Source: a virus (lineage: Duplodnaviria > Caudoviricetes). From it: 64,000 bases of DNA. Shown one piece after another: positions 42,034-58,167 of the stretch (position 1 is its first letter; every line of letters begins with the position of its first letter). Where the stretch lies: IMG/VR virus record IMGVR_UViG_3300032283_000551, positions 1 through 64,000 of that record. The stretch is one strand, 5' to 3'. Position numbers and translations under genes: made by a program. Under the pieces are notes generated by a model. It had not been told where the DNA came from. It was given only the letters and a program-made list of their open reading frames with translations, and did not search any database.

Positions 42034-42717
42034 ATGAAACTTATTACCGAACTAACAGAAGCAATTGATTTTGAAACTCAACTTGATGAAGCAACTGGTA
42101 GAAAGCAACATCATATTCACGGTCGCTTTCTTGTTGCTGAAGAACAAAATAAAAATGGCCGTGTATATCCAATGTCTGTATTGGAAAATGCAGTAAATAA
42201 ATATAATGAAAGCCATATTAAAACAAATCGTGGTTACGGTGAATTAGGTCACCCTGCCGGTCCACAGATTAATTTAGATCGTGTATCCCATCTTATTGTT
42301 GAATTAAAGAGAGATGGTAAGAGTAATTATTTTATTGGTAAAGCAAAGTTGACTGATACTCCTATGGGTAACATTGCTAGAGGTCTTCTTGATTCTGGTG
42401 CTAATTTAGGTGTTTCTTCTCGTGGTATGGGAAGTCTTCAATCAGAAAATGGGGTGATGATTGTACAACCTGATTTTCATCTTGCAACTGCAGCTGATAT
42501 TGTAGCTGATCCATCTGCACCTAATGCTTTTGTAAAAGGTGTTATGGAAAATGTTGATTGGGTTTATGATGCGACTAATGATTCTTGGTATCAAGAGAAA
42601 CTACATGAAACACGTAAACAATTAAGAACTATGCGTATGGACGAAATTGAACATAATAAACTTGCTATTTTTGAAGGTTTCGTCAAGTCTTTATCGTCAA
42701 AAACAAATTTGTTATAA
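42034..42717 (+). CDS. gp21: Prohead protease gp21
   Basis: MKLITE start at 42034; NGRVYP, GELGHP, GVSSRG.GSL, ADIVADPSAP.AFV.G.ME. Confidence 0.95.
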   Translation: MKLITELTEAIDFETQLDEATGRKQHHIHGRFLVAEEQNKNGRVYPMSVLENAVNKYNESHIKTNRGYGELGHPAGPQINLDRVSHLIVELKRDGKSNYFIGKAKLTDTPMGNIARGLLDSGANLGVSSRGMGSLQSENGVMIVQPDFHLATAADIVADPSAPNAFVKGVMENVDWVYDATNDSWYQEKLHETRKQLRTMRMDEIEHNKLAIFEGFVKSLSSKTNLL

Positions 42718-42720
42718 ATA
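42713..42720 (+). promoter_or_regulatory. Late promoter TATAAATA upstream of gp22
   Basis: Exact consensus. Confidence 0.8.
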
Positions 42721-42751
42721 AAACAAATAGAATGTAAGGGAGACCTTTTTA

Positions 42752-44005
42752 ATGTCAACAGAAAATAACGATCAATTTGAAGAACTTGATGAAGGTAAGT
42801 GGGATTATCCTAAGAGTATGACCCAAACCAAAACGACTTCTGACGCGGGTTCTACCAACGCTGCGGATAATAGAGAAAGACGTAAAGCTTTTAGAAAGAA
42901 AATGAAAGCCATACAGCATAAAGAACTAATGAGTGGTAAGCAAAAGCAACCGGTTGAAGAATCAATTGCCTCAGAAACTTTGAAGGCAGATTCACGCTCT
43001 GATGATTCAAATCCAAAGTCAAAGATTGCAGCTATTAATGCGGTCATTGGTTCGATGAATGCTATGAGTAGTGATGAACTTACAAAGTGGTATACAAGTG
43101 CTATGGCTCTTATTGGTAAGGAAGCTTCTGCTCTACCAGGATCAGCAAATTCAGATTCAAATAAAAGTTCATTGAATATGAAAGATTCAGCTGCTGTTGG
43201 TAGTGGTGGTGCATCTGCCGCCGATCCAATGCCAAAGTTAGACCATAAAAATAATCCTCTTGCTTCGATGAAGGAAGATGTAGAAGAAATGTTTGTTGGT
43301 ACAGACCTATCCGAAGAGTTCAAGGATAAGGCAACAACTCTATTTGAAGCAGCAGTAAATGCACGTGCAACACTTGAAATTGCTCGTCTTGAAGAAGAAT
43401 TTGAAACTGCATATGAAGAAAGACTTGAGGAAGAAGTTGCCTCAATTGTTGAAAATGTAGAAACTAATCTTGATACTTACCTAGATTATATTGTAGAAAA
43501 GTGGATGGAAGATAATCAAGTTGCTATTGAATCTTCTCTTCGCAATGAAATTATGGAAGAATTTATTGGTGGTCTAAAAGGCCTATTTGCTGAACATTAC
43601 ATCAATGTCCCTGAAGAAAAAATCGATGTAATTGAAGCTATGGCACAAAAGATTGAAACTCTAGAAAATGCATTAAACGAATCTATCAATGATGCCAATG
43701 AGCTTAAATCAGTACTTGCTGAAGCTAAAATGTCATCATTGGTTGATGAATTGTCAGAAGGTTTAACAATGTCTCAAGCAGAGAAGTTTGCTGCTCTTGC
43801 TGAAGGTGTGAGCTTTGATGGCAATTTTAACTCTTACAAATCAAAACTTGAAATGGTTAAAGAGACATATTTCTCAATGAAGCCAAAGACTTCAAATATT
43901 GAGGAAGAAACTTTTGAAAGTGATGATGAAAGTGTGAATACCGTAAGTATGGATCCACATGTAAGTAATTATGTCCGTGCAATTGCTAGAACAACTAAGA
44001 AATAA
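42752..44005 (+). CDS. gp22: Prohead scaffolding protein gp22
   Basis: LSEEFKDKA.T.FEAAV; YLDY.VE.WM..N..AIE..LR.EI.EEFI.GLK.LF.EHYI..PEEK. Confidence 0.92.
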   Translation: MSTENNDQFEELDEGKWDYPKSMTQTKTTSDAGSTNAADNRERRKAFRKKMKAIQHKELMSGKQKQPVEESIASETLKADSRSDDSNPKSKIAAINAVIGSMNAMSSDELTKWYTSAMALIGKEASALPGSANSDSNKSSLNMKDSAAVGSGGASAADPMPKLDHKNNPLASMKEDVEEMFVGTDLSEEFKDKATTLFEAAVNARATLEIARLEEEFETAYEERLEEEVASIVENVETNLDTYLDYIVEKWMEDNQVAIESSLRNEIMEEFIGGLKGLFAEHYINVPEEKIDVIEAMAQKIETLENALNESINDANELKSVLAEAKMSSLVDELSEGLTMSQAEKFAALAEGVSFDGNFNSYKSKLEMVKETYFSMKPKTSNIEEETFESDDESVNTVSMDPHVSNYVRAIARTTKK

Positions 44006-44010
44006 TTTTA

Positions 44011-44018
44011 TATAAATA
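44011..44018 (+). promoter_or_regulatory. Late promoter TATAAATA upstream of gp23
   Basis: Exact consensus. Confidence 0.85.
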
Positions 44019-44047
44019 AACTAAACCTACAAAGAAAGGGAAATAAA

Positions 44048-45445
44048 ATGTTTTTACAAGAAGAAATTCAGAAGAAGTGGTCACCAATTCTTGACCATGC
44101 CGATCTTCCATCAATCAAGGACTCACACCGCCGTTCCGTAACAGCTGTTGTTCTTGAAAATACAGAAAGAGCTCTCCGTGAAGCTTCATCTCATGGTCAA
44201 TTCCAGACCCTGACTGAAACAGCTTCAACTGGTGCATTCAATGCTATGGGTGCTTCTAGTTCAACTGCAGGCGCCGGTCCAATTGATACATTCGATCCAG
44301 TACTTATCTCACTGGTTCGTCGTTCAATGCCTAATCTAATTGCCTATGACATCTGCGGCACACAGCCAATGACTGGACCAACAGGCTTGATCTTTGCTAT
44401 GCGCTCACGTTATGGTAACTCTGCTGCTCTTGGTAATACATCTGCTGTTGGTAATACTAAGGCTGCCGGTGAAACATTCTATAACGAAGTTGATACCACA
44501 TTCTCTTCTGTAACATCTGGTGCTAACTCATTTGGCCAGAAGTTCGTTGGTACAATCCCAGGTGATACTAATACTTCTATCATGTCTGCCGTTAACGGTT
44601 ATAACACCGGTTCAGGCATGTCAACAGCTCAGGCTGAAGTACTTGGTGCCGATGGCAACACTGCTTTTGCTCAAATGGGCTTCTCAATCGAAAAGGTCAC
44701 CGTAACTGCTAAGTCACGTGCCCTCAAGGCTGAGTACACAATGGAACTGGCTCAAGACCTTAAGGCTATCCATGGTCTCGATGCCGAAACTGAACTTGCT
44801 AACATTCTTGCCGCTGAAATCCTTGCCGAAATCAACCGTGAAGTTGTTCGCACAATCAACATCACTGCCGTAACCGGCGCACAAGACAATACAACAACTG
44901 CTGGTGTATTCGATCTTGACACCGATTCAAACGGCCGTTGGTCTGTTGAAAAGTTCAAGGGTCTTATGTTCCAACTAGAACGCGAAGCTAACTACATTGC
45001 TCGTACAACCCGCCGTGGTAAGGGCAACATTGTTATCTGCTCTTCAGATGTTGCTTCTGCTCTTCAAATGGCCGGTGTTCTTGACTACGCTCCTGCCCTG
45101 AACTCAAACAACTTGCAAGTTGACGATACAGGCAATACTTTTGCTGGTGTTCTCAATGGTCGCCTAAAGGTTTATATCGACCCATATGCTCTCGGTGGTA
45201 ACTATCTGACCGTTGGTTATAAGGGTTCATCTGCCTTTGATGCCGGTCTGTTCTATTGCCCATATGTTCCACTACAAATGGTAAGAGCTAATGATCAGTC
45301 AACATTCCAACCAAAGATTGGCTTCAAGACACGTTATGGTATGGTTGCCAACCCATTCGCTCAAGGTGGTACTGTTGGTTCGGGCGCTCTGACATTCAAT
45401 ACTAACTTCTACTACCGTCGTGTGGTTGTTAACAACCTCATGTAA
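44048..45445 (+). CDS. gp23: Major capsid protein gp23
   Basis: DPVLISLVRR.MPNLIAYDICG.QPM.GPTGLIFAMR; SRALKAEYTMELAQDLKAIHGLDAE; FQPKIGFKTRYG. Confidence 0.98.
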   Translation: MFLQEEIQKKWSPILDHADLPSIKDSHRRSVTAVVLENTERALREASSHGQFQTLTETASTGAFNAMGASSSTAGAGPIDTFDPVLISLVRRSMPNLIAYDICGTQPMTGPTGLIFAMRSRYGNSAALGNTSAVGNTKAAGETFYNEVDTTFSSVTSGANSFGQKFVGTIPGDTNTSIMSAVNGYNTGSGMSTAQAEVLGADGNTAFAQMGFSIEKVTVTAKSRALKAEYTMELAQDLKAIHGLDAETELANILAAEILAEINREVVRTINITAVTGAQDNTTTAGVFDLDTDSNGRWSVEKFKGLMFQLEREANYIARTTRRGKGNIVICSSDVASALQMAGVLDYAPALNSNNLQVDDTGNTFAGVLNGRLKVYIDPYALGGNYLTVGYKGSSAFDAGLFYCPYVPLQMVRANDQSTFQPKIGFKTRYGMVANPFAQGGTVGSGALTFNTNFYYRRVVVNNLM

Positions 45446-45476
45446 TAACGAGACTGGATCCAACCAGTCCAACTAG

Positions 45477-45503
45477 AAAAGGGAGCTTCGGCTCCCTTTT
45501 TTT
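45477..45503 (+). terminator. Rho-independent terminator after gp23
   Basis: AAAAGGGAGC-TTCG-GCTCCC-TTTTTTT with a C(UUCG)G tetraloop; a second hairpin GACTGG/CCAGTC at 45452-45469 lies just upstream. Confidence 0.92.
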
Positions 45504-45509
45504 ATGTTT

Positions 45510-45517
45510 AATAAATA
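45510..45517 (+). promoter_or_regulatory. Late promoter variant upstream of gp3
   Basis: AATAAATA right after the gp23 terminator. Confidence 0.65.
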
Positions 45518-45540
45518 GATAGGTATTTTGGGAGTGTATT

Positions 45541-46062
45541 ATGACTGCAATTGATAATTCAATAGCCAATGGAAATTTTCTTTCACCGCTCAATTTTAAA
45601 TTTCAATTGAAGCGTGCTCCACATATTAACTTTTTTATTCAGACAGTTAATATACCTGGGCTTTCATTACAAGCAATTGATGTAAATAATCCATTAATTC
45701 GCGTACCATATGCTGGCGATCACTTGATGTATGATGAACTTGATATTTCGTTTAGAGTCGATGAAGATCTTCAGAATTATATGGAAATGCATGAATGGAT
45801 TCGCGCACATGGTAAACGTAGTTTTGAAGAATTTGCTGCATTAAAAAATCAACCAAAATATTCAGGTGAAGGTTTATACTCTGATATTGTTCTGACGATT
45901 TTAAAAAGCAATAAAAATCCAAATTATAGCATAGTATTTCAAGATGCATTCCCTATTTCACTATCAGGCATTGATTTTAATACAACTTTAGAGGATGTTA
46001 ATTATCTAGAAGCATCAGCAAAGTTTAGATATACTGCTTACGATATTACTAAAGTCACCTAA
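45541..46062 (+). CDS. gp3: Tail completion protein gp3
   Basis: NFLSP.NFKF...P...FF.Q..NIPG.SL; F.VDEDL.NY.E.H.W; FP.SLS.I.F. Confidence 0.88.
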   Translation: MTAIDNSIANGNFLSPLNFKFQLKRAPHINFFIQTVNIPGLSLQAIDVNNPLIRVPYAGDHLMYDELDISFRVDEDLQNYMEMHEWIRAHGKRSFEEFAALKNQPKYSGEGLYSDIVLTILKSNKNPNYSIVFQDAFPISLSGIDFNTTLEDVNYLEASAKFRYTAYDITKVT

Positions 46063-46085
46063 GTTATTAAAAAGAAATATTTTGG

Positions 46086-46114
46086 TTGACATCTTATTAA
46101 AAGTAAGATATATT
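46086..46114 (+). promoter_or_regulatory. sigma70-type promoter upstream of uvsY
   Basis: TTTGG-TTGACA-17-TATATT. Confidence 0.75.
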
Positions 46115-46140
46115 ACTAGTAATAATTGATAGGTGTTGTT

Positions 46141-46575
46141 ATGAAATTTGAAGACATATTTGAAGAATGGAAAAAAGACAGTGACATTGATAGGACCGAA
46201 TTGGGTCTAGAGAGTCTTAAAATCCCCAAACTTCACCATAAGTATTATACATATCTAGTTACCGAAAAAACAATACTAAGAAAACAAGAATCTCAATTTA
46301 AACAACTTAAACTTGCAAAGTATGAATTCTTTACACAAGGTCATACGGAAGAAACAAAGACTTTAGGGTGGGAATTACCACCTAGGGGTATAATATTAAA
46401 ACCCGATATTCCAATGTATATAGAAGCTGATAAAGACATTGTAGAACTTTCACTAAAGATTGGCGGACAACAAGAAAAAGTTGAATTTTTAGAATCAATT
46501 ATTAAGTCATTTCAGACAAGAGGCTACATCATAAAGAATGCTATTGATTTTGTGAAGTTTACAATGGGTGGATAA
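46141..46575 (+). CDS. uvsY: Recombination mediator UvsY
   Basis: IPKLHHKY; K.EF..G; I..RGY.IKNAIDF.KF..G; adjacent to uvsW. Confidence 0.88.
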   Translation: MKFEDIFEEWKKDSDIDRTELGLESLKIPKLHHKYYTYLVTEKTILRKQESQFKQLKLAKYEFFTQGHTEETKTLGWELPPRGIILKPDIPMYIEADKDIVELSLKIGGQQEKVEFLESIIKSFQTRGYIIKNAIDFVKFTMGG

Positions 46576-52047: not shown

Positions 52048-52583
52048 ATATTTTCTATCTGTCTACCGATGCACGCCAAGCGGCTCAATGGATGGTTGAT
52101 AAACATGTTGTTAAAATGATTTTGGAATCGGCACAATTGCTGTCCACCGCACATCGTGTATTGGATGGTATTGAATCGGTTGGTAAATCACCAACTGGTC
52201 GTAAACAAAAGACCTGGACTCTTGGTGATGCTCGTGACTCTGTACTATATAAAGCTACCCATATTAATCACCCGTCTGCAATCTGGACTCGCAAGTCGGT
52301 TGAAAACTATAACTGGCTAGTAGATCATTTTTATGCACTTGGTGACGAATATACATATCGTTATGGTAAGACTCATAAATCTTTTACCGGTGATTTGGCT
52401 TATATGCTTCAGTCGCCGCCAAAGAACCTGACCGAATATGATATGACAGTTATGCCATCTGCAATGGCCGATGAATTTGTTGTGGATGAAGATCCTATTA
52501 TTAATTACCGTAATTACTACAAGATCGGGAAAGCAAGAATGCATTCCTGGAAAAACCGTCAACCACCTGAATGGATTATCTAA
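52044..52583 (+). CDS. Pyrimidine-dimer DNA glycosylase (DenV/endonuclease V-like family)
   Basis: MNIFYL..D...AAQ...DKHVVKMILESAQLLSTAH; HINHPS.IW; EY..RYGK.H. Confidence 0.75.
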   Translation: MNIFYLSTDARQAAQWMVDKHVVKMILESAQLLSTAHRVLDGIESVGKSPTGRKQKTWTLGDARDSVLYKATHINHPSAIWTRKSVENYNWLVDHFYALGDEYTYRYGKTHKSFTGDLAYMLQSPPKNLTEYDMTVMPSAMADEFVVDEDPIINYRNYYKIGKARMHSWKNRQPPEWII

Positions 52584-52585
52584 AT

Positions 52586-52951
52586 ATGACATACGAAATT
52601 ACAGAATCAGAAATTACCGTTATCCGTAATATTCAAGACAAGCTTTACGGACAAGCAAGTGCTATGGGTTGGCATGATAAGCCCCGTGAAATCGGGACTT
52701 TTATTGCTCTAGCTCATTCGGAACTTTCCGAAGCACTTGAAGGCGCTCGTAAGGATCTTATGGATGACCACTTGACAAATAGATCAATGCTTGAAGTGGA
52801 ACTTGCTGATTGTATTATCCGCATTCTCGACATGGCTGGTCATTATAAGTTGGATGTTGCAGGTGCTCTGGCAGAAAAGCATCAATATAATGCTAATCGT
52901 GCAGATCATAAGCGTGAAAATCGTGCCGCAGCTGGTGGTAAGAAATTCTAA
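52586..52951 (+). CDS. MazG-like nucleotide pyrophosphohydrolase
   Basis: IAL.HSELSEALEG.RK; E.ELAD..IRILD; EK..YN..R. Confidence 0.8.
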   Translation: MTYEITESEITVIRNIQDKLYGQASAMGWHDKPREIGTFIALAHSELSEALEGARKDLMDDHLTNRSMLEVELADCIIRILDMAGHYKLDVAGALAEKHQYNANRADHKRENRAAAGGKKF

Positions 52952-52973
52952 ATAACATTTGGGAGATAACCTA

Positions 52974-53282
52974 ATGACAATAGAAGTACGGGATACCTCC
53001 CAAGACTATGATGATATGGTTTCCTATAAAGCCAAAGAAAATATTCGGACTGATTTGTCTGTATTCTTTGGTGAGGAAACCGATCAAAAGCCAATTGTTC
53101 CACCCAAGAAAATTGATCCAGATTTTCCTGAACAATGGCAATCTTTATTTGTAAATTTTAGATCACATGATGATTTTGTCAAGTTCATGAAATTGATTGA
53201 TGAAGTCCCATCACCTAAAACTAAAGATCTTATTTTTAAAGCAAATAAAGATAATGGTATTTTGAATTTTTTTGGAGATTAA
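52974..53282 (+). CDS. Small glycosyltransferase-associated protein (paralog 1)
   Basis: V.F....D...F..LI.....KT motif shared with the next ORF. Confidence 0.55.
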   Translation: MTIEVRDTSQDYDDMVSYKAKENIRTDLSVFFGEETDQKPIVPPKKIDPDFPEQWQSLFVNFRSHDDFVKFMKLIDEVPSPKTKDLIFKANKDNGILNFFGD

Positions 53283-53283
53283 A

Positions 53284-53547
53284 ATGAATCTACATAAAAC
53301 GATCGAAGATTTGGAAACGGATTGGCGAAATCCGTATGCACAATGGTATGCAGCAGGTATGCCAGCATTTGTTACTAAAAATCTTGAGCCGTGGAAACAA
53401 ATTTCAATTAAATTTCCTACCATGGAAGATCGTAAGAAATTTGCTGAAATCACCGGTTATTCTTTGACAGAAAAGACAAATGTTATTTGGTATCCCGATA
53501 AGGGCCGTGAGCGAAACAATATGAATAGAGTTATTGAAGATGAGTAA
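53284..53547 (+). CDS. Small glycosyltransferase-associated protein (paralog 2)
   Basis: W..GMPAF....LEPW..I.I.F....D...FA...G...TEKT..IWYP, a motif I recall as adjacent or fused to GREB1/TET-associated glycosyltransferases. Confidence 0.6.
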   Translation: MNLHKTIEDLETDWRNPYAQWYAAGMPAFVTKNLEPWKQISIKFPTMEDRKKFAEITGYSLTEKTNVIWYPDKGRERNNMNRVIEDE

Positions 53548-54478
53548 AGCAAGCCGTTATCCGATTTACATTATCAGTAAAGGTCGATGGGATTCTAGAT
53601 ATACTAGTAAAGCCCTAGAGCGTATGGGTGTTCCATATTATATTGCGGTTGAACCTCAAGAATATGATAATTATGCCGCTGTAATTGATCCAAAGAAAGT
53701 ACTTACTTTACCTTTCAGTAATCATGGTAAAGGTTCAGGCCCTGCCCGTAACTGGTGCTGGGAACACTCACAAGCAAATGGATTTAAGCGTCACTGGCTT
53801 ATGGATGATAATATCTATGAGTTTTGGCGCTTTCACCAGAATAAGCGTTATCGTGTGGAGAAAGGTTCTGGTATCTTTAGAGCAACCGAAGATTTTGTGG
53901 ATCGGTATGAAAATATTGCCCTAGCAGGTCTCCAATATAAGTTTTTCTGTGTGGATGATTATCCATACCCACCGTATATTCTTAACACTCGTATCATGTC
54001 ATGTTTCTTAATTGACAATGATTGTCCACATAAGTGGCGTGGTCGCTATAATGAAGACGTTGATTTGTCCATCCGTGTTCTCAAGGAAGGCCTTTGCACC
54101 ATGTTATTCTATGCTTTCCTTTGTGGTAAAGCAAGAACTGGTACTGTTAAGGGTGGTAATACATCGGAAGTTTATAATAACTATGCTGAAGATGCTTCAT
54201 TAAAGAAGTCACAAATGCTTGTTGAGATGCATCCAGATGTAGTTACTCTTGACCAGCGCTACGGTCGAGTGCATCATCATGTCGACCTTAATGCTATTAT
54301 TAATAAGAATGGTCAACCTGCTAGAGATAATCGACCAATCCTGAAAAAAGATGTTGACATTTTCAACAAAGTGGATAATTATGGTATGAGACTTATTCGT
54401 GAATGGGACACACCTGAAGCGTATGAAGATCTGGAATATTCCAGTGATGTATATCCACAAGGACGGAAAAATTATTAA
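53540..54478 (+). CDS. GT-A glycosyltransferase of GREB1-like / TET-associated (TAGT) type
   Basis: YPIYIISKGR, VEPQEYD.Y, G.GPARNW.W.H, HW.MDDNI, WRGRYNED.DLS.R.LK.G.CT, T...KGGNT. Confidence 0.8.
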   Translation: MSKASRYPIYIISKGRWDSRYTSKALERMGVPYYIAVEPQEYDNYAAVIDPKKVLTLPFSNHGKGSGPARNWCWEHSQANGFKRHWLMDDNIYEFWRFHQNKRYRVEKGSGIFRATEDFVDRYENIALAGLQYKFFCVDDYPYPPYILNTRIMSCFLIDNDCPHKWRGRYNEDVDLSIRVLKEGLCTMLFYAFLCGKARTGTVKGGNTSEVYNNYAEDASLKKSQMLVEMHPDVVTLDQRYGRVHHHVDLNAIINKNGQPARDNRPILKKDVDIFNKVDNYGMRLIREWDTPEAYEDLEYSSDVYPQGRKNY

Positions 54479-55437
54479 TGGCTAAAATTTTAATTACCGG
54501 TGGGGCAGGCTTCATCGGTTTTCATCTTGCGCAAAAACTTATTAATAATGAAGATACCATTCATATTATTGATAATTTTAATGATTATTATGATGTCGAG
54601 TTGAAGCATGCTCGTGCAAAAATCCTATTTGATACTAACAAGGTTGAAATTTTTGGTCATGATCTGAACGACTCTAAGGTCTTACAGAAATATTTTATTA
54701 CAAATAGGCCTGATATTGTAATCCATCTTGCTGCTCATGCTGGTGTCCGACATTCACTTGACCATACGATGGATTATATTCAAAATAATATTGTAGCGAC
54801 TCAAAATCTTATCGCTATGTGTGAGATTTATGGTGTAAAGAAAGTAATTTATGCTTCAACTTCATGTGTTATGGCAGGTAATCCATTACCGTGGCGTGAA
54901 GATGTTGCAGTTGGTCATCAATTAAATCCATATGGATATACCAAGCGCACAAATGAATGTCAGTTTATGACTTCTAAGATTCCAAATACTATTGGTCTTA
55001 GGTTCTTTACTGTTTATGGACCATACGGTCGACCCGACATGGCTCTATTTCAGTTTGCAAATGCGGCCGTCACTGGTGCACCAATCAATGTTTTTAACTA
55101 TGGTGACATGAAGCGTGACTTTACCTATGTAGATGATATCATCAATGGCATTATTATTGTTCTAGATCGCATTATATGTATTGACAAACCATTGGATGAG
55201 ATATATAATATAGGGAGAGGTGAACAAATCCAACTTATGGATTTTATCTCCGAGATCGAAACTAATTTTGATCGAATTATTACCAAGAATTTTGTCCCAA
55301 AGCACCCTGCCGATACATTGGAGACTTGGTCCGATACGACCAAGTTACAGGCTCTTGGATGGAAACCTTCGGTTTCTGTTCCTGAAGGTGTTGCAAAATT
55401 CTGTGAATGGTATAAATCATATTATGGGGTAAATTGA
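54478..55437 (+). CDS. NAD-dependent epimerase, UDP-glucuronate 4-epimerase-like
   Basis: ITGGAGFIGFH, HLAA.AGVR.S, Y..TK, LRFFTVYGP.GRPDMA, MKRDFTYVDDI. Confidence 0.85.
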   Translation: MAKILITGGAGFIGFHLAQKLINNEDTIHIIDNFNDYYDVELKHARAKILFDTNKVEIFGHDLNDSKVLQKYFITNRPDIVIHLAAHAGVRHSLDHTMDYIQNNIVATQNLIAMCEIYGVKKVIYASTSCVMAGNPLPWREDVAVGHQLNPYGYTKRTNECQFMTSKIPNTIGLRFFTVYGPYGRPDMALFQFANAAVTGAPINVFNYGDMKRDFTYVDDIINGIIIVLDRIICIDKPLDEIYNIGRGEQIQLMDFISEIETNFDRIITKNFVPKHPADTLETWSDTTKLQALGWKPSVSVPEGVAKFCEWYKSYYGVN

Positions 55438-56295
55438 ATGAAAATTGCTATTATTGGACATGGATTTGTTGGAAAGGCCGTTGATTATGGCTTTCCCGAT
55501 ATTATGTGTGAAAAGTTTATTTTTGATCCACTGCTTAATAACCCAGTCGAAAATATATCCTCAGTCGATAATATAGATTTTTCATTCGTCTGTGTCCCCA
55601 CCCCTATGGGTATTAATGGCAGTATTGATTCTTCTATTATTGAAAATGTTTTGGCCGTATTAAAGAAAAATACAAGTGGAACAATTATCATTAAATCTAC
55701 AATCACTCCTGATATTATCAGTAAAATTTTCCGAGGACCTCACCGCGATCGAATTGTTTATAACCCGGAGTTTTTAACCGAAAAAAGTGCCAATGAGGAT
55801 TTTGTAAATCCTTTCATGCATATTTTTGGTGGTAATCCGGACTATACTAGTAAGGTTGAGGAATTATATAAGTATTATAGTCTTTGCAAGCCTTGTCCAG
55901 TATATCATATGTCTGCGGTGGATGCCAGTTTTGTCAAGTATGGTGTTAATAGTTATCTGGCATCTAAGGTTCTTTGGTTTAATCAATTCTATGATATTGT
56001 TAATTCCGAGGGTGCAAATTTCGGTAAGGTAATCAGTGCTATTACTGCTGATTCACGTGTGGGTAGATCACATACAACTGTCCCTGGCTTTGATGGAAAG
56101 AGAGGCTTTGGTGGTGCATGTTTCCCTAAAGACACCATGGCATTCCTGAATTATTCTAAGAAGAATAAGCAAAATTTTTCTGTCCTGGAGACTGTTATTA
56201 GGGAAAATAATAACTATCGTAAGGGGTATGAAAAGGATACTAGGGAAATTGAACAGAATATTAATTTTGATATGGGAGTAACTAATGCCACCTGA
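55438..56295 (+). CDS. UDP-glucose 6-dehydrogenase-like (short form without C-terminal domain)
   Basis: IIG.GFVG, VCVPTP, IKST..P, NPEFL.E, KY..N..LA.KV, GFGGACFPKD with the catalytic Cys. Confidence 0.85.
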   Translation: MKIAIIGHGFVGKAVDYGFPDIMCEKFIFDPLLNNPVENISSVDNIDFSFVCVPTPMGINGSIDSSIIENVLAVLKKNTSGTIIIKSTITPDIISKIFRGPHRDRIVYNPEFLTEKSANEDFVNPFMHIFGGNPDYTSKVEELYKYYSLCKPCPVYHMSAVDASFVKYGVNSYLASKVLWFNQFYDIVNSEGANFGKVISAITADSRVGRSHTTVPGFDGKRGFGGACFPKDTMAFLNYSKKNKQNFSVLETVIRENNNYRKGYEKDTREIEQNINFDMGVTNAT

Positions 56296-56575
56296 AAAAT
56301 TTTTGTTTAAGTATAACGAAGGTCAAATACTAGACGAGCTATATGCATATATAATGAAGACATATGGAAGTCATTACGGAGATAGAGTCCAAGCACAAGA
56401 TCTGATAATTTCATCTGGTCACGCCGAAGGTTTCTATATTGGAAATGTTATTAAGTATGCTTCTCGCTATGGAAAAAAGAATGGTAAAAATAAAGATGAT
56501 CTGATGAAGGTTCTTCACTATACTGTTCTTGCTCTAAATTATCACTACATTGAAAATGAAAATAAGGAAAATTAA
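56285..56575 (+). CDS. DUF3310-like protein
   Basis: Y..HY, F..GNVIKY..RYGKK.G...DL.K..HY. Confidence 0.7.
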   Translation: MPPEKFLFKYNEGQILDELYAYIMKTYGSHYGDRVQAQDLIISSGHAEGFYIGNVIKYASRYGKKNGKNKDDLMKVLHYTVLALNYHYIENENKEN

Positions 56576-56577
56576 TC

Positions 56578-57426
56578 ATGGAAATCTCGATTCAAATTGA
56601 AGAACTTCGTAAGCGTAAGATCTTTTTGGCAACCCCTATGTATGGTGGTCAATGTGCAGGTATGTTTGCTAAGTCTGTTGCTGACTTGACATCTCTTTGT
56701 ACATCTAATGGTATTGAACTACGTTCATATTTTTTGTTTAATGAATCTCTTATCACTCGTGCACGCAATTATTGCGTAGATGAGTTTATGCGGTCCGATT
56801 GTACCCACATGATGTTTATTGACTCGGATATCGGATTTGATCCTCGTGATGTTCTTGCAATGCTTGCACTCCAAAGTGATGATTCTGAATATGATGTTCT
56901 TGCAGGGCCTTATCCTAAGAAGTGCATCAGTTGGGAAAAGATCAAGCTTGCTGTCGACAAGGGTATTGCTGACGAAGATCCCAATGTTCTTGAAAAGTTT
57001 GTTGGTGATTATGTTTTTAATCCAAAGGGCGGTGGTGGAAACATCCGTATTGATATCCCGGTAGAAGTATCTGAAATTGGTACCGGATTTATGATGACTC
57101 GCCGTTCCGCTTTTGAAAAGTTTGAAAAGGCATTCCCTCATTATAGTTATAAGCCAGATCATGTTCGCACTGAACAGTTTGATGGTTCTCGTGAAATCAT
57201 GCAATACTTCCAGGCTGAAATTGATCCTGCCTCTAAGCGCTATCTTTCGGAAGACTATTGGTTCTGTCAGAAACTTATTGAAATCGGTGGTAAGGTTTGG
57301 TATTGCCCATGGATGAAGCTCCAACACGTTGGTAGTTATATCTTTGGTGGATCATTGATTGATCTAGCTTCTATCGGTGCACCTGCTACCGCTGACCCTG
57401 GTCTATTGAAGAAGACCAAGAAGTAA
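56578..57426 (+). CDS. Second GT-A fold glycosyltransferase (GT2-like)
   Basis: IFLATPMYGG, ESLITRARN, THMMFIDSDI (DxD), YLSEDY.FC, L.H.G. Confidence 0.8.
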   Translation: MEISIQIEELRKRKIFLATPMYGGQCAGMFAKSVADLTSLCTSNGIELRSYFLFNESLITRARNYCVDEFMRSDCTHMMFIDSDIGFDPRDVLAMLALQSDDSEYDVLAGPYPKKCISWEKIKLAVDKGIADEDPNVLEKFVGDYVFNPKGGGGNIRIDIPVEVSEIGTGFMMTRRSAFEKFEKAFPHYSYKPDHVRTEQFDGSREIMQYFQAEIDPASKRYLSEDYWFCQKLIEIGGKVWYCPWMKLQHVGSYIFGGSLIDLASIGAPATADPGLLKKTKK

Positions 57427-57454: not shown

Positions 57455-58108
57455 ATGAAGATTAATAATAAGACCCTGAATATTCTTAAGAACTTTGCAA
57501 CTATTAATCCCTCAATTATTGTAAAGCCTGGAAATATTCTAAAGACAATCTCCTCGAGCAAGACCATTCTTGCTCGGGCTGAGGTTCCCGATACATTTGA
57601 ATACCCATTTGCAATTTACAATCTGTCTCAGTTTATTGGTTGTATTTCAATGTTTACGGATCCGGATCTTGACTTTGATGAAAGTTCTGTGACCATCAGC
57701 GATGGGAAGAATAAGATCGTATATCACTATGCTGATTCCTCGATCATTCTTGCGCCACCTGATAAAGATATTAATATTCCATCGGTTGATGCAGAATTTA
57801 AGATTTCAGCAACTGATATTCCTAGTGTTGCCAAGGCACTCAGTATTCTTGAACTTACTGAAATTGCATTTGTCGGCGATGGTGATAATATCCTTATTCA
57901 AGCTATTGACAGTAAAAACCCATCCTCAAATCAATATAGTGTAAAGGTTGGTGCTACCGATAAGGTTTTTAAGGCTATTTTCAAGCCTGATAATCTTAAG
58001 ATGGTTCCTGATGACTATGTTGTCACACTTTCTTCTAAGGGCCTTTCAAAGTTTGTTGGTACTGAGGCTACATACTACGTAGCTATTGAGGCAACAAGCA
58101 CTTTTTGA
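57455..58108 (+). CDS. gp45: Sliding clamp gp45
   Basis: TL.ILKNFATIN.SI; FAIYNL.QF; F....K..NLK..P.DY.V; Y.VA.E. Confidence 0.92.
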   Translation: MKINNKTLNILKNFATINPSIIVKPGNILKTISSSKTILARAEVPDTFEYPFAIYNLSQFIGCISMFTDPDLDFDESSVTISDGKNKIVYHYADSSIILAPPDKDINIPSVDAEFKISATDIPSVAKALSILELTEIAFVGDGDNILIQAIDSKNPSSNQYSVKVGATDKVFKAIFKPDNLKMVPDDYVVTLSSKGLSKFVGTEATYYVAIEATSTF

Positions 58109-58137: not shown

Positions 58138-58167
58138 AGGGTAGGGTGTATAACTCTACCCTTTTTT
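58138..58167 (+). terminator. Terminator-like hairpin between gp45 and gp44
   Basis: AGGGTAGGG-TGTATAA-CTCTACCCT followed by a T run. Confidence 0.65.

What the first reader, a model, noticed from the sequence alone, without database searches (positions are those of the whole stretch)
52974..57426. Candidate uronic-acid hypermodification pathway (UDP-Glc to UDP-GlcA to UDP-GalA plus two glycosyltransferases)
Seen: a tightly coupled operon of two small paralogs, a GREB1/TAGT-type GT, a UDP-glucuronate-4-epimerase-like SDR, a UDP-glucose dehydrogenase, a DUF3310-like protein and a second GT-A, lying between MazG-like/DenV-like genes and the gp45-44-62 replisome genes. Knowledge: TAGT/GREB1-like GTs glycosylate hydroxymethyl-pyrimidines in phage DNA; Ugd plus this epimerase class make UDP-GlcA and UDP-GalA. 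Inference: the phage may decorate its DNA with an acidic sugar (glucuronate/galacturonate, possibly extended to a disaccharide by the second GT), which would be an unusual anti-restriction/anti-CRISPR mark. An alternative is glycosylation of the S/T/N-rich virion proteins or of host surface.
Basis: partly seen in the sequence, partly recalled or inferred. Interest (0 to 1): 0.8.

Follow-up and report, generated by a model that had tools for sequence, protein, structure and literature searches.

The report
Phage uronic-acid sugar-transfer cassette, target unknown
An uncultured marine T4-like phage carries, next to its DNA sliding-clamp gene, genes that make activated sugar acids plus a DNA-type sugar transferase, so it probably coats its DNA with an acidic sugar, a chemistry already shown for other phage gene clusters; no gene for the modified base that such transferases normally decorate was found.

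Summary
The genes are real and tightly packed (52959-57426, + strand) between gp46/PDF/DenV/MazG and gp45-44-62.

- **Sugar genes.** The epimerase is about 55% identical to PDB 5u4q, and next best to proven UDP-glucuronate 4-epimerases. The "Ugd" is a 285-aa form with every catalytic residue but no UDP-binding C-terminal domain. That domain is absent from all six related records searched.
- **Transferase.** The two small proteins are distant paralogs. sB is the detached N-terminal domain of the TAGT transferase. sA ends in a tail like that of the phage's own DNA polymerase, which suggests clamp docking.
- **Second transferase.** It has a GT-A fold, but it is a lineage-wide neighbour of gp45 that also occurs without the sugar genes.
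- **Sister lineage.** Related phages place the same Ugd-epimerase pair beside a T4-type dCMP hydroxymethylase.
- **Missing acceptor.** This lineage shows no thymidylate-synthase-family, TET or C5-methylase gene in about 110 kb from this phage plus a 93-96%-identical relative (genome about 154 kb), nor in a 170-kb relative.

Hexuronic acid on 5hmC has already been produced by reconstituted phage clusters (bioRxiv 2023). I read this as a new variant of a known kind with an unknown acceptor. This scan noted similar cassettes on other DNA.

The parts
52571..52951 (+). MazG-like NTP pyrophosphatase (context; possible nucleotide-pool role)
   Evidence: phrog_5658 pyrophosphatase, E 1.6e-51. Directly precedes sA. 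Generic in this phage group, so the link to the cassette is only positional.
52959..53282 (+). sA: small acidic protein, paralog of sB, with a gp43-like C-terminal tail (..GILNFFGD). Candidate adaptor that docks on the gp45 clamp.
   Evidence: No Pfam or PHROG family. The family is conserved in 11 loci with the terminal consensus NGxLDFF. hhalign to the sB family: 92.9%. The tail matches the gp43 tail ..TLESFFG. The motif picks only gp43 and sA in G000 and G006, and those two plus two small ORFs in G001. Likely ATG start at 52974.
53272..53547 (+). sB: detached N-terminal domain or subunit of the TAGT glycosyltransferase
   Evidence: Fused in frame to TAGT in G006 (408 aa) and L029 (416 aa). 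The sB profile matches residues 4-109 of the Aeromonas phage 65 TAGT protein: hhalign 94.8%, E 4.9e-8. A homing-endonuclease gene separates sB and TAGT in the 154-kb contigs, so they are separate genes.
53534..54478 (+). TAGT-family GT-A-like glycosyltransferase (catalytic subunit)
   Evidence: PF20691, E 1.5e-49. phrog_842 'beta-glucosyl-HMC-alpha-glucosyltransferase', E 4.1e-50. Invariant K16-G17-R18, D91-D92 and E174-D175-x-D177, matching the R..DDD..ED motifs described for phage DNA GT-A enzymes.
54478..55437 (+). UDP-glucuronate 4-epimerase-like extended SDR
   Evidence: PF01370, E 4.7e-47. PDB best hits: 5u4q 2.5e-76 (about 55% identity), BcUGAepi 6zl6 6.4e-46, MoeE5 1.5e-31, all ahead of the GalE enzymes except 4zrm (ranked between 6zl6/6zlj and MoeE5). 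GxxGxxG and YxxxK are present.
55438..56295 (+). Short two-domain UDP-glucose 6-dehydrogenase-like enzyme (NAD-binding and central domains; no UDP-binding C-terminal domain)
   Evidence: PF03721 and PF00984 only. The GxGxxG motif, the Thr, both Glu, Lys, Asn, and the Cys-x-x-Lys-Asp motif align to 1dli and are invariant in 17 relatives. Model pLDDT 93; all top Foldseek hits are UGDHs, with TM 0.71-0.78 by query but 0.45-0.58 by target. All 120 listed best homologs (of 4107 hits) are 270-294 aa with the same two domains.
56285..56575 (+). DUF3310 protein (function unknown; its position in relatives is variable)
   Evidence: PF11753, E 2.5e-11; phrog_480, E 3.2e-28. In L034, L039 and L044 it lies 5-7 kb away from Ugd, so the link is weak.
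56578..57426 (+). Second glycosyltransferase, GT-A fold (phrog_1574), a lineage-conserved neighbour of gp45
   Evidence: phrog_1574, E 1.5e-61. Model pLDDT 80.6. Foldseek hits: A197 of STIV 2.3e-8, LH3, Mimivirus R699, COLGALT1, ppGalNAc-Ts. Invariant D82-x-D84. 48-66% identical homologs lie upstream of gp45 in DLP6, Cr30 and phiM12 without Ugd, Epi or TAGT.
57455..58108 (+). gp45 sliding clamp (proposed docking platform), followed by the operon's only strong terminator at 58138-58162
   Evidence: phrog_223, E 2.2e-72. Terminator with 10 pairs plus a T-run.

Best explanation
**Proposed mechanism**

The cassette supplies and transfers an acidic sugar, most likely onto the phage's own replicating DNA.

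1. The short Ugd-like enzyme oxidises UDP-glucose to UDP-glucuronate.
2. The GAE-type SDR epimerises it to UDP-galacturonate.
3. A split TAGT-type GT-A transferase (sB plus the catalytic TAGT protein) transfers the sugar to a hydroxyl-bearing base.
4. The paralog sA, which ends in a tail like that of the phage DNA polymerase, tethers the transferase to the gp45 clamp. Modification would then follow the replication fork.

**Side components**

The second GT-A (phrog_1574) and DUF3310 are lineage-conserved neighbours. Their tie to the sugar pathway is weaker. The second GT-A may add a further sugar or act on something else.

**Shown versus inferred**

- Shown: gene content, domain content, residue conservation, fusions, synteny.
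- Inferred: substrates, clamp docking, DNA as the acceptor.
- Unknown: the acceptor base and the enzyme that makes it.
For: **Sugar pathway**
- The epimerase is about 55% identical to PDB 5u4q. BcUGAepi ranks second and MoeE5 fifth, with one UDP-glucose 4-epimerase (4zrm) between them.
- The Ugd catalytic set is invariant across relatives of 37-74% identity.
- Two different classes of SDR that consume UDP-GlcA alternate beside the short Ugd: the 4-epimerase here, and a UXS-like SDR in L008, L029, L036 and G006.

**Transferase**
- TAGT matches PF20691 at E 1.5e-49, with conserved R/DD/ED motifs.
- sB is fused to TAGT in G006 and L029, and equals the N-terminal domain of the Aeromonas phage 65 TAGT protein.
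- sA and sB are paralogs.
- The sA tail resembles the gp43 tail, and the motif picks only these two proteins in G000 and G006, with two extra small ORFs in G001.

**Context**
- The cassette sits in the replication operon and ends at gp45. It is conserved in more than 20 contigs, with TAGT at 70-88% identity while gp45 is only 40-56% identical.
- The sister lineage places Ugd-Epi directly beside a T4 gp42-type dCMP hydroxymethylase (E 4.9e-68 to 1b49), a dCMP deaminase and, in L039, an AGT-like GT.

**Precedent**
- A GT-A plus a partner epimerase from phage contigs put HexA on 5hmC in E. coli (bioRxiv 10.1101/2023.12.21.572611).
- SP-15 DNA carries a glucuronate derivative, and that phage encodes Ugd (PMC5977210).
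Against: - No PF00303 (thymidylate synthase or hydroxymethylase) gene and no Tet_JBP gene in G000, G003, G001 or G006, and no C5-methylase in G000, G001 or G006.
- ThyX is present in G001, G003 and G006, so dTMP is made normally.
- The Ugd-Epi pair also occurs without TAGT: in L021, in L025, and in the complete 156-kb phage C48C1, which has neither TAGT nor a TS-family gene.
- phrog_1574 occurs without any of the sugar genes.
- The short Ugd lacks the domain that binds UDP in solved UGDHs. No activity has been reported for such a form, as far as I could find.
- The TAGT superfamily also includes the animal protein glycosyltransferase GREB1 (my own knowledge).
- The closely related record G003 has a second sugar cassette elsewhere. 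Marine phages often carry sugar genes of unknown role.
Confidence: 0.5

Rival explanations
1. The same sugar pathway feeds glycosylation of something other than DNA. The target would be virion proteins, as in chloroviruses and mycobacteriophages, or host envelope glycans, as an auxiliary metabolic function. TAGT and phrog_1574 would then be protein or glycan transferases.
For: - No enzyme for a hydroxyl-bearing base in 110 kb from this phage plus a 93-96%-identical relative, nor in a 170-kb relative.
- The best structural matches of the second GT are protein or capsid glycosyltransferases: A197, LH3, COLGALT1, ppGalNAc-T, PBCV-1 A64R.
- Ugd-Epi occurs in the complete phage C48C1 without TAGT or a TS-family gene.
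- A further sugar cassette with a GT-B lies near nrdAB in G003.
- 65% of contigs that hit the GT HMMs in the published survey had no neighbouring base-modification gene.
Against: - The cassette sits inside the early replication operon, not the late structural region.
- The sA tail mimics the clamp-binding tail of gp43.
- Every characterised phage TAGT or GT-A relative acts on DNA.
- The sister lineage couples Ugd-Epi to gp42.
Confidence: 0.3
2. Either the phrog_1574 GT-A uses the UDP-uronic acid while TAGT uses a host sugar such as UDP-glucose, or both GTs act in sequence to build a disaccharide.
For: - Epi-Ugd-(DUF3310)-GT2 occurs as a block without sA-sB-TAGT in L021 and L025. L027 differs from L025 mainly by the inserted sA-sB-TAGT.
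- T6 TAGT adds a second sugar to an existing one.
- G006 and Kuja each carry two TAGT paralogs.
Against: - phrog_1574 is kept at 48-66% identity in DLP6, Cr30 and phiM12, which have no Ugd or Epi.
- In the published clusters, the epimerase-dependent transferases were the TAGT/JGT-like GT-A enzymes.
Confidence: 0.15
3. The short Ugd-like enzyme does not act on UDP-glucose. Without the UDP-binding domain, it would oxidise a sugar already attached to its acceptor (for example glucosyl-DNA to glucuronosyl-DNA), or some other primary alcohol.
For: - The C-terminal UDP-binding domain is missing here, in all 120 listed best homologs (270-294 aa, of 4107 hits), and anywhere else in six related records.
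- L039 has the short Ugd without any adjacent SDR, next to an AGT-like GT and gp42.
Against: - In most loci it is paired with an SDR whose closest solved relatives all take UDP-GlcA: the 4-epimerase or the decarboxylase. This is hard to explain if UDP-GlcA is not made.
- Residues that contact the sugar and the catalytic set are those of UGDH.
Confidence: 0.08

Closest known systems
Metavirome 'subclass II' DNA sugar-hypermodification clusters (GT-A-like DNA glycosyltransferase plus partner sugar epimerase; contig 57 and contig 91 give hexuronic-acid-5hmC). Pyle, Lund, O'Toole, Saleh, bioRxiv 10.1101/2023.12.21.572611
   Same: An adjacent GT-A-type transferase and SDR epimerase. The R..DD..ED motifs are present. 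The predicted product is a hexuronic acid on a DNA base. The survey notes gp45/clamp and extra GTs among neighbouring genes.
   Different: - Those clusters sit beside a C5-methyltransferase and a TET-like 5mYOX that make 5hmC. None is found here.
- Here the phage brings its own, truncated, Ugd.
- The transferase is split into sB plus TAGT, with an extra paralog sA.
- I could not compare sequences with GT57 or GT91, which are not held here.
T-even glucosyl-hmC system (T4 gp42, gp56, alpha-GT and beta-GT; T2/T6 beta-glucosyl-HMC-alpha-glucosyltransferase, which is in the TAGT family)
   Same: A T4-like replication-module location. The same TAGT family as the T6 enzyme (phrog_842). The sister lineage has a true gp42 beside Ugd-Epi.
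   Different: No gp42 homolog in this lineage. The donor is predicted to be a UDP-uronic acid made by the phage, not host UDP-glucose. T6 TAGT adds a second glucose to an existing one.
Bacillus phage SP-15 (glucuronolactone-phosphate and glucose on 5-dihydroxypentyluracil; phage-encoded Ugd), PMC5977210
   Same: A phage-encoded UDP-glucose dehydrogenase linked to a uronic-acid decoration of DNA.
   Different: SP-15 uses a full-length Ugd, an hmU-derived base made by a TS-family enzyme, and a phosphodiester linkage. It has no TAGT.
Bacterial UDP-glucose 6-dehydrogenases (1dli, 4a7p, 7kws) and UDP-glucuronate 4-epimerases (BcUGAepi 6zl6, MoeE5 6kv9; also K. pneumoniae 5u4q, whose function I assign from memory)
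   Same: The catalytic residues and folds match.
   Different: The phage Ugd lacks the whole UDP-binding C-terminal domain, about 100 aa. It scores below the NCBIfam cut-off: 138 against 189.8 bits.
Vibrio phage vB_VchM_Kuja (cultured, Ackermannviridae)
   Same: It encodes tandem TAGT proteins with the sB-like N-terminal extension, Ugd followed by an SDR, and a TS-family gene. That makes it a culturable test case for the same idea.
   Different: Its Ugd is full length (413 aa). The genes are not in one cassette. The phage family is unrelated.

Membership tests
TAGT (PF20691, TET-associated glycosyltransferase / T6 beta-glucosyl-HMC-alpha-glucosyltransferase family) | Significant full-length match to the family profile | tested here: met
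   169.2 bits against a cut-off of 27.5, covering profile positions 1-205. phrog_842, E 4.1e-50.
TAGT (PF20691) | [quoted passage not shown] DD(D) ... ED | tested here: met
   K16-G17-R18, D91-D92 and E174-D175-x-D177 are invariant in 10 relatives. The motifs are as described.
TAGT (PF20691) | Genomic association with an enzyme that makes a hydroxymethyl- or hydroxy-pyrimidine (TET/5mYOX plus C5-MTase, or a TS-superfamily synthase) | tested here: not met
   No PF00303 and no PF12851 match in G000, G003, G001 (108 kb) or G006 (170 kb). No PF00145 match in G000, G001, G002 or G006 (G003 not searched). About 44 kb of this phage is unseen. The Tet_JBP control never rang over its cut-off, so that part is weak.
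TAGT (PF20691) | Transfers a sugar to DNA | not testable with these tools
   Needs biochemistry.
UDP-glucose/GDP-mannose 6-dehydrogenase | N-terminal NAD-binding Rossmann domain with GxGxxG | tested here: met
   PF03721, E 1.9e-14. GHGFVG at residues 7-12 is invariant.
UDP-glucose/GDP-mannose 6-dehydrogenase | Central domain with the catalytic Cys (GGxCxxKD) plus Lys, Asn, Thr and Glu residues | tested here: met
   PF00984, E 1e-15. C228, K231, D232, K167, N171, T88 and E111 are invariant and align to 1dli.
UDP-glucose/GDP-mannose 6-dehydrogenase | C-terminal UDP-sugar-binding domain (PF03720) | tested here: not met
   The protein ends about 55 aa after the catalytic Cys. There is no PF03720 match in the protein or anywhere in six related records, while the control rang in 14 of 14 genomes. 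Foldseek covers only 45-58% of full-length UGDHs. The score is below the TIGR03026 cut-off.
UDP-glucuronate 4-epimerase (GAE-type extended SDR) | Extended SDR fold with GxxGxxG and YxxxK; closest characterised relatives are UDP-GlcA 4-epimerases | tested here: met
   5u4q 260 bits, 6zl6 160 bits and MoeE5 113 bits, against 122 bits or less for GalE enzymes. That 5u4q is a GAE-type enzyme is my recollection; the entry's title says otherwise. No NCBIfam equivalog exists.
UDP-glucuronate 4-epimerase (GAE-type extended SDR) | Interconverts UDP-GlcA and UDP-GalA | not testable with these tools
   Needs an enzyme assay.
GT-A fold glycosyltransferase (second GT, phrog_1574) | Rossmann-like GT-A fold with a DxD metal/donor motif | tested here: met
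   Model pLDDT 80.6, pTM 0.79. 127 PDB hits at E <= 1e-3, and all those listed are GT-A enzymes. D82-S-D84 is invariant. TM-scores are modest (0.4-0.6).
'Subclass II' DNA hypermodification cluster (Pyle et al.) | GT-A next to a sugar epimerase AND next to a C5-MTase and 5mYOX | tested here: inconclusive
   The GT-A plus epimerase adjacency is met. The C5-MTase and 5mYOX adjacency is not met.
gp45 clamp-binding proteins of T4-like phages | Short hydrophobic and acidic C-terminal tail like that of gp43 | tested here: inconclusive
   sA ends ..GILNFFGD and gp43 ends ..TLESFFG. The motif picks only these two in G000 and G006, and these plus two small ORFs in G001, against 0.4-1.1 hits per proteome expected by chance. 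The pattern was written after seeing both tails.

The most novel reading that the evidence does not exclude
This widespread group of marine T4-like phages glycosylates its DNA without any known hydroxymethyl- or hydroxy-pyrimidine synthase. That would mean either an undescribed enzyme makes the acceptor base or the transferase attacks a new kind of acceptor. It would use a clamp-tethered, split TAGT transferase. The uronic-acid donor would come from a new two-domain class of UDP-glucose dehydrogenase that works without the canonical UDP-binding domain.
Probability: 0.2. Interest if true: 0.8.

Novelty: new variant of a known kind. Interest (0 to 1): 0.55.

Why it matters
**DNA sugar coats and defence.** Sugar coats on phage DNA decide whether restriction enzymes, CRISPR and type IV systems can cut it. 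A negatively charged sugar would also change DNA packaging and how proteins recognise the DNA.

**What is already known.** Hexuronic acid on 5hmC has been made from reconstituted phage clusters, so the chemistry itself is not new.

**Three open points here.**
1. An abundant marine T4-like lineage has the transferase and donor pathway but none of the known enzymes that make the acceptor base. The Krischvirus phage SAP shows that unknown routes to such bases exist (PMC13390438).
2. A very large family of Ugd-like enzymes lacks the UDP-binding domain yet keeps the full catalytic set.
3. The transferase appears to be tethered to the sliding clamp by a small paralogous subunit. That would be a simple way to couple modification to replication.

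Each point can be tested with standard expression and LC-MS.

Tried and rejected
**Searches that found nothing**
- Megablast of the region against phage records: no match.
- Sequence searches of TAGT and the second GT against PDB: no match.
- NCBIfam gave no specific names; every hit was below its cut-off.
- ESM Atlas search with the sB domain: only unnamed viral clusters, scores 0.80-0.82.
- PMC13326640 (glycosylated 5-hydroxycytosine) does not mention uronic acids or TAGT.
- Pfam on the remaining unknown ORFs of the 77-kb record gave only UvsY and weak hits.

**Reaching the unseen ~44 kb of this phage**
- Two contigs of about 154 kb carry a 99%-identical Ugd-like protein (ENA ERZ28593230 scaffold_38; JGI Ga0480394_0000020).
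- They are not held for whole-record search.
- Exact-protein walking from the window's left end stopped in a 21-kb contig.
- A metagenome scan with the first ORF found nothing.

**Complex prediction**
Nothing was folded, so clamp docking rests on sequence only.

**Ideas considered and dropped**
- The missing Ugd domain is encoded separately: rejected, since PF03720 is absent from six records.
- sB/TAGT is a frameshifted single gene: rejected. The split is conserved, and a homing endonuclease gene lies between them in near-identical contigs.
- DUF3310 as a dedicated nucleotide kinase of the pathway: not supported, because its position varies.
- TS-family co-occurrence in six cultured TAGT phages (5 of 6): mostly canonical ThyA-like scores, so uninformative.

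Full report
**What is there**

The window is 64 kb of a 77-kb IMG/VR record, G000, which CheckV rates 46% complete. It is a T4-like myovirus. The order is UvsW, gp55, gp47, gp46, a peptide deformylase, a DenV-like protein and a MazG-like pyrophosphatase, then seven tightly packed genes, then gp45, gp44, gp62 and regA.

The seven genes are:
- sA, 52959-53282 (first ATG at 52974)
- sB, 53272-53547
- a TAGT-family glycosyltransferase, 53534-54478
- an SDR epimerase, 54478-55437
- a Ugd-like dehydrogenase, 55438-56295
- a DUF3310 protein, 56285-56575
- a phrog_1574 protein, 56578-57426

Neighbouring genes overlap or lie within 0-13 nt of each other. The only convincing terminator follows gp45 (58138-58162). 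Promoter-like and terminator-like sites are no more frequent than in shuffled sequence.

**The donor half**

The epimerase is about 55% identical to PDB 5u4q (2.5e-76). It then matches Bacillus cereus UDP-glucuronate 4-epimerase (6zl6, 6.4e-46) and MoeE5 (1.5e-31). All three score ahead of the UDP-glucose 4-epimerases except 4zrm, which ranks between 6zl6/6zlj and MoeE5. GxxGxxG and YxxxK are intact. That 5u4q is a GAE-type enzyme is my recollection; the entry is titled differently.

The dehydrogenase is not an ordinary Ugd.
- It has 285 residues and matches only the NAD-binding and central domains.
- Its alignment to 1dli and 4a7p stops about 100 residues before their ends.
- GxGxxG and the Thr, Glu, Lys, Asn and Cys-x-x-Lys-Asp catalytic residues are all present. 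They are invariant across 17 relatives of 37-74% identity.
- A confident model (pLDDT 93) matches only UDP-glucose dehydrogenases. TM-score is 0.71-0.78 by the query but 0.45-0.58 by the target.
- The missing UDP-binding domain (PF03720) is not encoded anywhere in six related records, while the control genomes all rang.
- The short form is a large family. All 120 best database hits are 270-294 aa with the same two domains, among 4107 hits.

An independent argument says the short enzyme still makes UDP-glucuronate. In sister contigs (L008, L029, L036, G006) the epimerase is replaced, at the same position, by a different SDR. That SDR's best solved relatives are UDP-glucuronate decarboxylases (2.3e-28). 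Two classes of enzyme that both consume UDP-GlcA thus alternate beside the short Ugd.

**The transferase half**

TAGT matches PF20691 over the whole profile (169 bits) and keeps the R, DD and ED motifs. Those motifs are described for phage DNA GT-A enzymes and for trypanosome JGT.

sB is the detached N-terminal domain of this transferase.
- It is fused in frame to TAGT in G006 and L029.
- Its profile matches residues 4-109 of the 398-aa TAGT protein of Aeromonas phage 65, at 94.8% probability.
- The nearest cultured TAGT genes all carry about 100 extra N-terminal residues.
- The split is real. In two ~154-kb contigs that carry a 99%-identical Ugd-like protein, a homing-endonuclease gene lies between sB and TAGT.

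sA and sB show no BLASTP similarity, but their family profiles align at 92.9% probability, E 3.7e-7.

Following a lead in earlier notes of this scan, I compared C-termini.
- sA ends ..GILNFFGD, with the family consensus NGxLDFF.
- The phage's own DNA polymerase ends ..TLESFFG, and ..TLEDFFG in G001 and G006.
- A tail pattern written from these two picks only gp43 and sA in G000 and G006, and those two plus two small ORFs in G001. By chance, 0.4-1.1 hits per proteome are expected.
- In T4 and RB69 the polymerase tail is what binds the gp45 clamp. That is established knowledge, and I did not test it here.

I therefore infer that sA tethers the transferase to the clamp. The complex predictor was unavailable, so this remains a sequence-level inference.

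**The other two genes**

The last protein has a GT-A fold. The model has pLDDT 80.6. Foldseek hits include A197 of STIV (2.3e-8), LH3, Mimivirus R699, COLGALT1 and the ppGalNAc-transferases. D82-x-D84 is invariant.

However, homologs of 48-66% identity sit upstream of gp45 in Stenotrophomonas phage DLP6, Caulobacter phage Cr30 and Sinorhizobium phage phiM12. Those phages have no Ugd, epimerase or TAGT. This is therefore a lineage gene, not a dedicated part of the uronic-acid pathway.

DUF3310 is likewise mobile relative to Ugd in other contigs.

**Modularity**

The order sA-sB-TAGT-SDR-Ugd-(DUF3310)-GT2-gp45 recurs in more than 20 IMG/VR contigs. TAGT is 70-88% identical among them, while gp45 is only 40-56% identical.

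Epi-Ugd-GT2 also occurs without sA-sB-TAGT, in L021 and in L025 (compare L027). The complete genome of phage C48C1 has Epi-Ugd with neither TAGT nor a TS-family gene.

Variable inserts in relatives include a second TAGT, a GT-B, a cytidylyltransferase, a dCMP deaminase and a DexA-like exonuclease.

**Link to modified DNA**

In a sister T4-like lineage (L030, L034, L039-L043) the same short Ugd, with or without Epi, lies immediately beside several DNA-modification genes:
- a dCMP hydroxymethylase that matches T4 gp42 at 4.9e-68
- a dCMP deaminase
- in L039, an AGT-like GT, a cytidylyltransferase and a C5-methylase-like protein

This block sits just upstream of UvsX, which from my recollection of the T4 map is where T4 keeps gp42 and beta-GT.

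**The acceptor problem**

The window's own lineage shows none of the known acceptor-making enzymes.
- PF00303 and Tet_JBP are absent from G000; from G003, a 93-96%-identical relative that extends about 33 kb further and includes primase, ThyX, nrdA and nrdB; from G001 (108 kb); and from G006 (170 kb). PF00145 is absent from G000, G001 and G006; G003 was not searched for it.
- ThyX is present in G001, G003 and G006.
- The Tet_JBP control never rang over its cut-off, so that negative is weak.
- About 44 kb of the ~154-kb genome remains unseen, and my attempts to reach it failed.

**Comparison with what is known, and novelty**

- Pyle et al. (bioRxiv 10.1101/2023.12.21.572611) rebuilt phage clusters in E. 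coli. A GT-A-like transferase plus its partner epimerase (contig 57), or a GT alone (contig 91), put a hexuronic acid on 5hmC, giving a 433 amu species.
- SP-15 DNA carries a glucuronate derivative, and that phage encodes Ugd.
- T6 TAGT adds the second glucose of gentiobiosyl-hmC.

A uronic-acid DNA mark is therefore not new in kind. Four things differ here: the phage-encoded truncated Ugd, the split and apparently clamp-tethered transferase, the T4-like marine setting, and above all the lack of any known acceptor-making enzyme.

This scan has noted the same sort of cassette on other DNA, with the same open acceptor.

**Odds**

| Reading | Probability |
|---|---|
| DNA glycosylation with a uronic acid | about 0.5 |
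| A non-DNA acceptor | about 0.3 |
| Alternative wirings or another substrate for the short Ugd | the remainder |

Noticed in passing
L179:2287-6406 (G003 42287-46406, a 93-96%-identical relative, beyond the end of the window's record): A second sugar cassette lies near nrdAB and RNase H. It holds a TylF-like O-methyltransferase, a GalE-like SDR, a GT-B glycosyltransferase (Glycos_transf_1), a GHMP kinase and a SIS-domain isomerase. Relative G001 adds an HldE-like kinase/cytidylyltransferase. The set resembles the isomerase/epimerase/kinase/NTP-transferase cluster described for arabinosylating Mosigvirus phages (PMC13390438).
   Followed up: partly
L168:7388-8038 (-) in ENA and JGI contigs of about 154 kb: A NUMOD3-type homing-endonuclease gene is inserted between sB and TAGT in contigs that carry a 99%-identical Ugd-like protein. 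It is absent from the window.
   Followed up: partly
L034:1019-4752; L039:4661-10810: A sister T4-like lineage has a T4 gp42-type dCMP hydroxymethylase, a dCMP deaminase, a SAM-methyltransferase-like protein or an AGT-like GT, a capsule-type phosphatase, a cytidylyltransferase and a C5-methylase-like protein. All are packed with the short Ugd (with or without Epi) upstream of UvsX.
   Followed up: partly
L008:2767-3600; L147:2377-3285; L029:5313-6209; L036:5544-6416: In sister contigs the 4-epimerase is replaced by a shorter SDR closest to UDP-glucuronate decarboxylase (UXS1). This suggests that the same locus produces different sugars (xylose-type rather than galacturonate) in different phages.
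   Followed up: partly
protein family of window:55438-56295: Short Ugd-like proteins of about 250-290 aa, without the UDP-binding domain, also occur in Campylobacter phages (CP220, CP21, CPt10) and in cyanophages S-SSM7 and S-SSM6a. All 120 listed best metagenomic homologs (of 4107 hits) share the two-domain form. I found no report of their activity.
   Followed up: partly
L171 (Vibrio phage Kuja 94391-95632 and 93537-94391); L164:3590-6278: Cultured Vibrio phage Kuja has a full-length Ugd followed by an SDR, two tandem TAGT proteins with the sB-like N-terminal extension, and a TS-family gene. It is a culturable system in which a uronic-acid DNA mark could be tested.
   Followed up: no
L003:15383-17041 (G000 75383-77041) and L003:4766-5143: At the end of the record there is a large protein joining phrog_455 to a cytidylyltransferase-type domain. 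I guess it belongs to NAD salvage. An S-adenosylmethionine decarboxylase-like gene lies at 64766-65143.
   Followed up: no
window:43-2847: The first ORF of the window is the 3' part of a 1583-aa gp8-like baseplate or fibre protein, cut by the contig end. The full gene is seen in JGI contig Ga0480297_0000224.
   Followed up: partly
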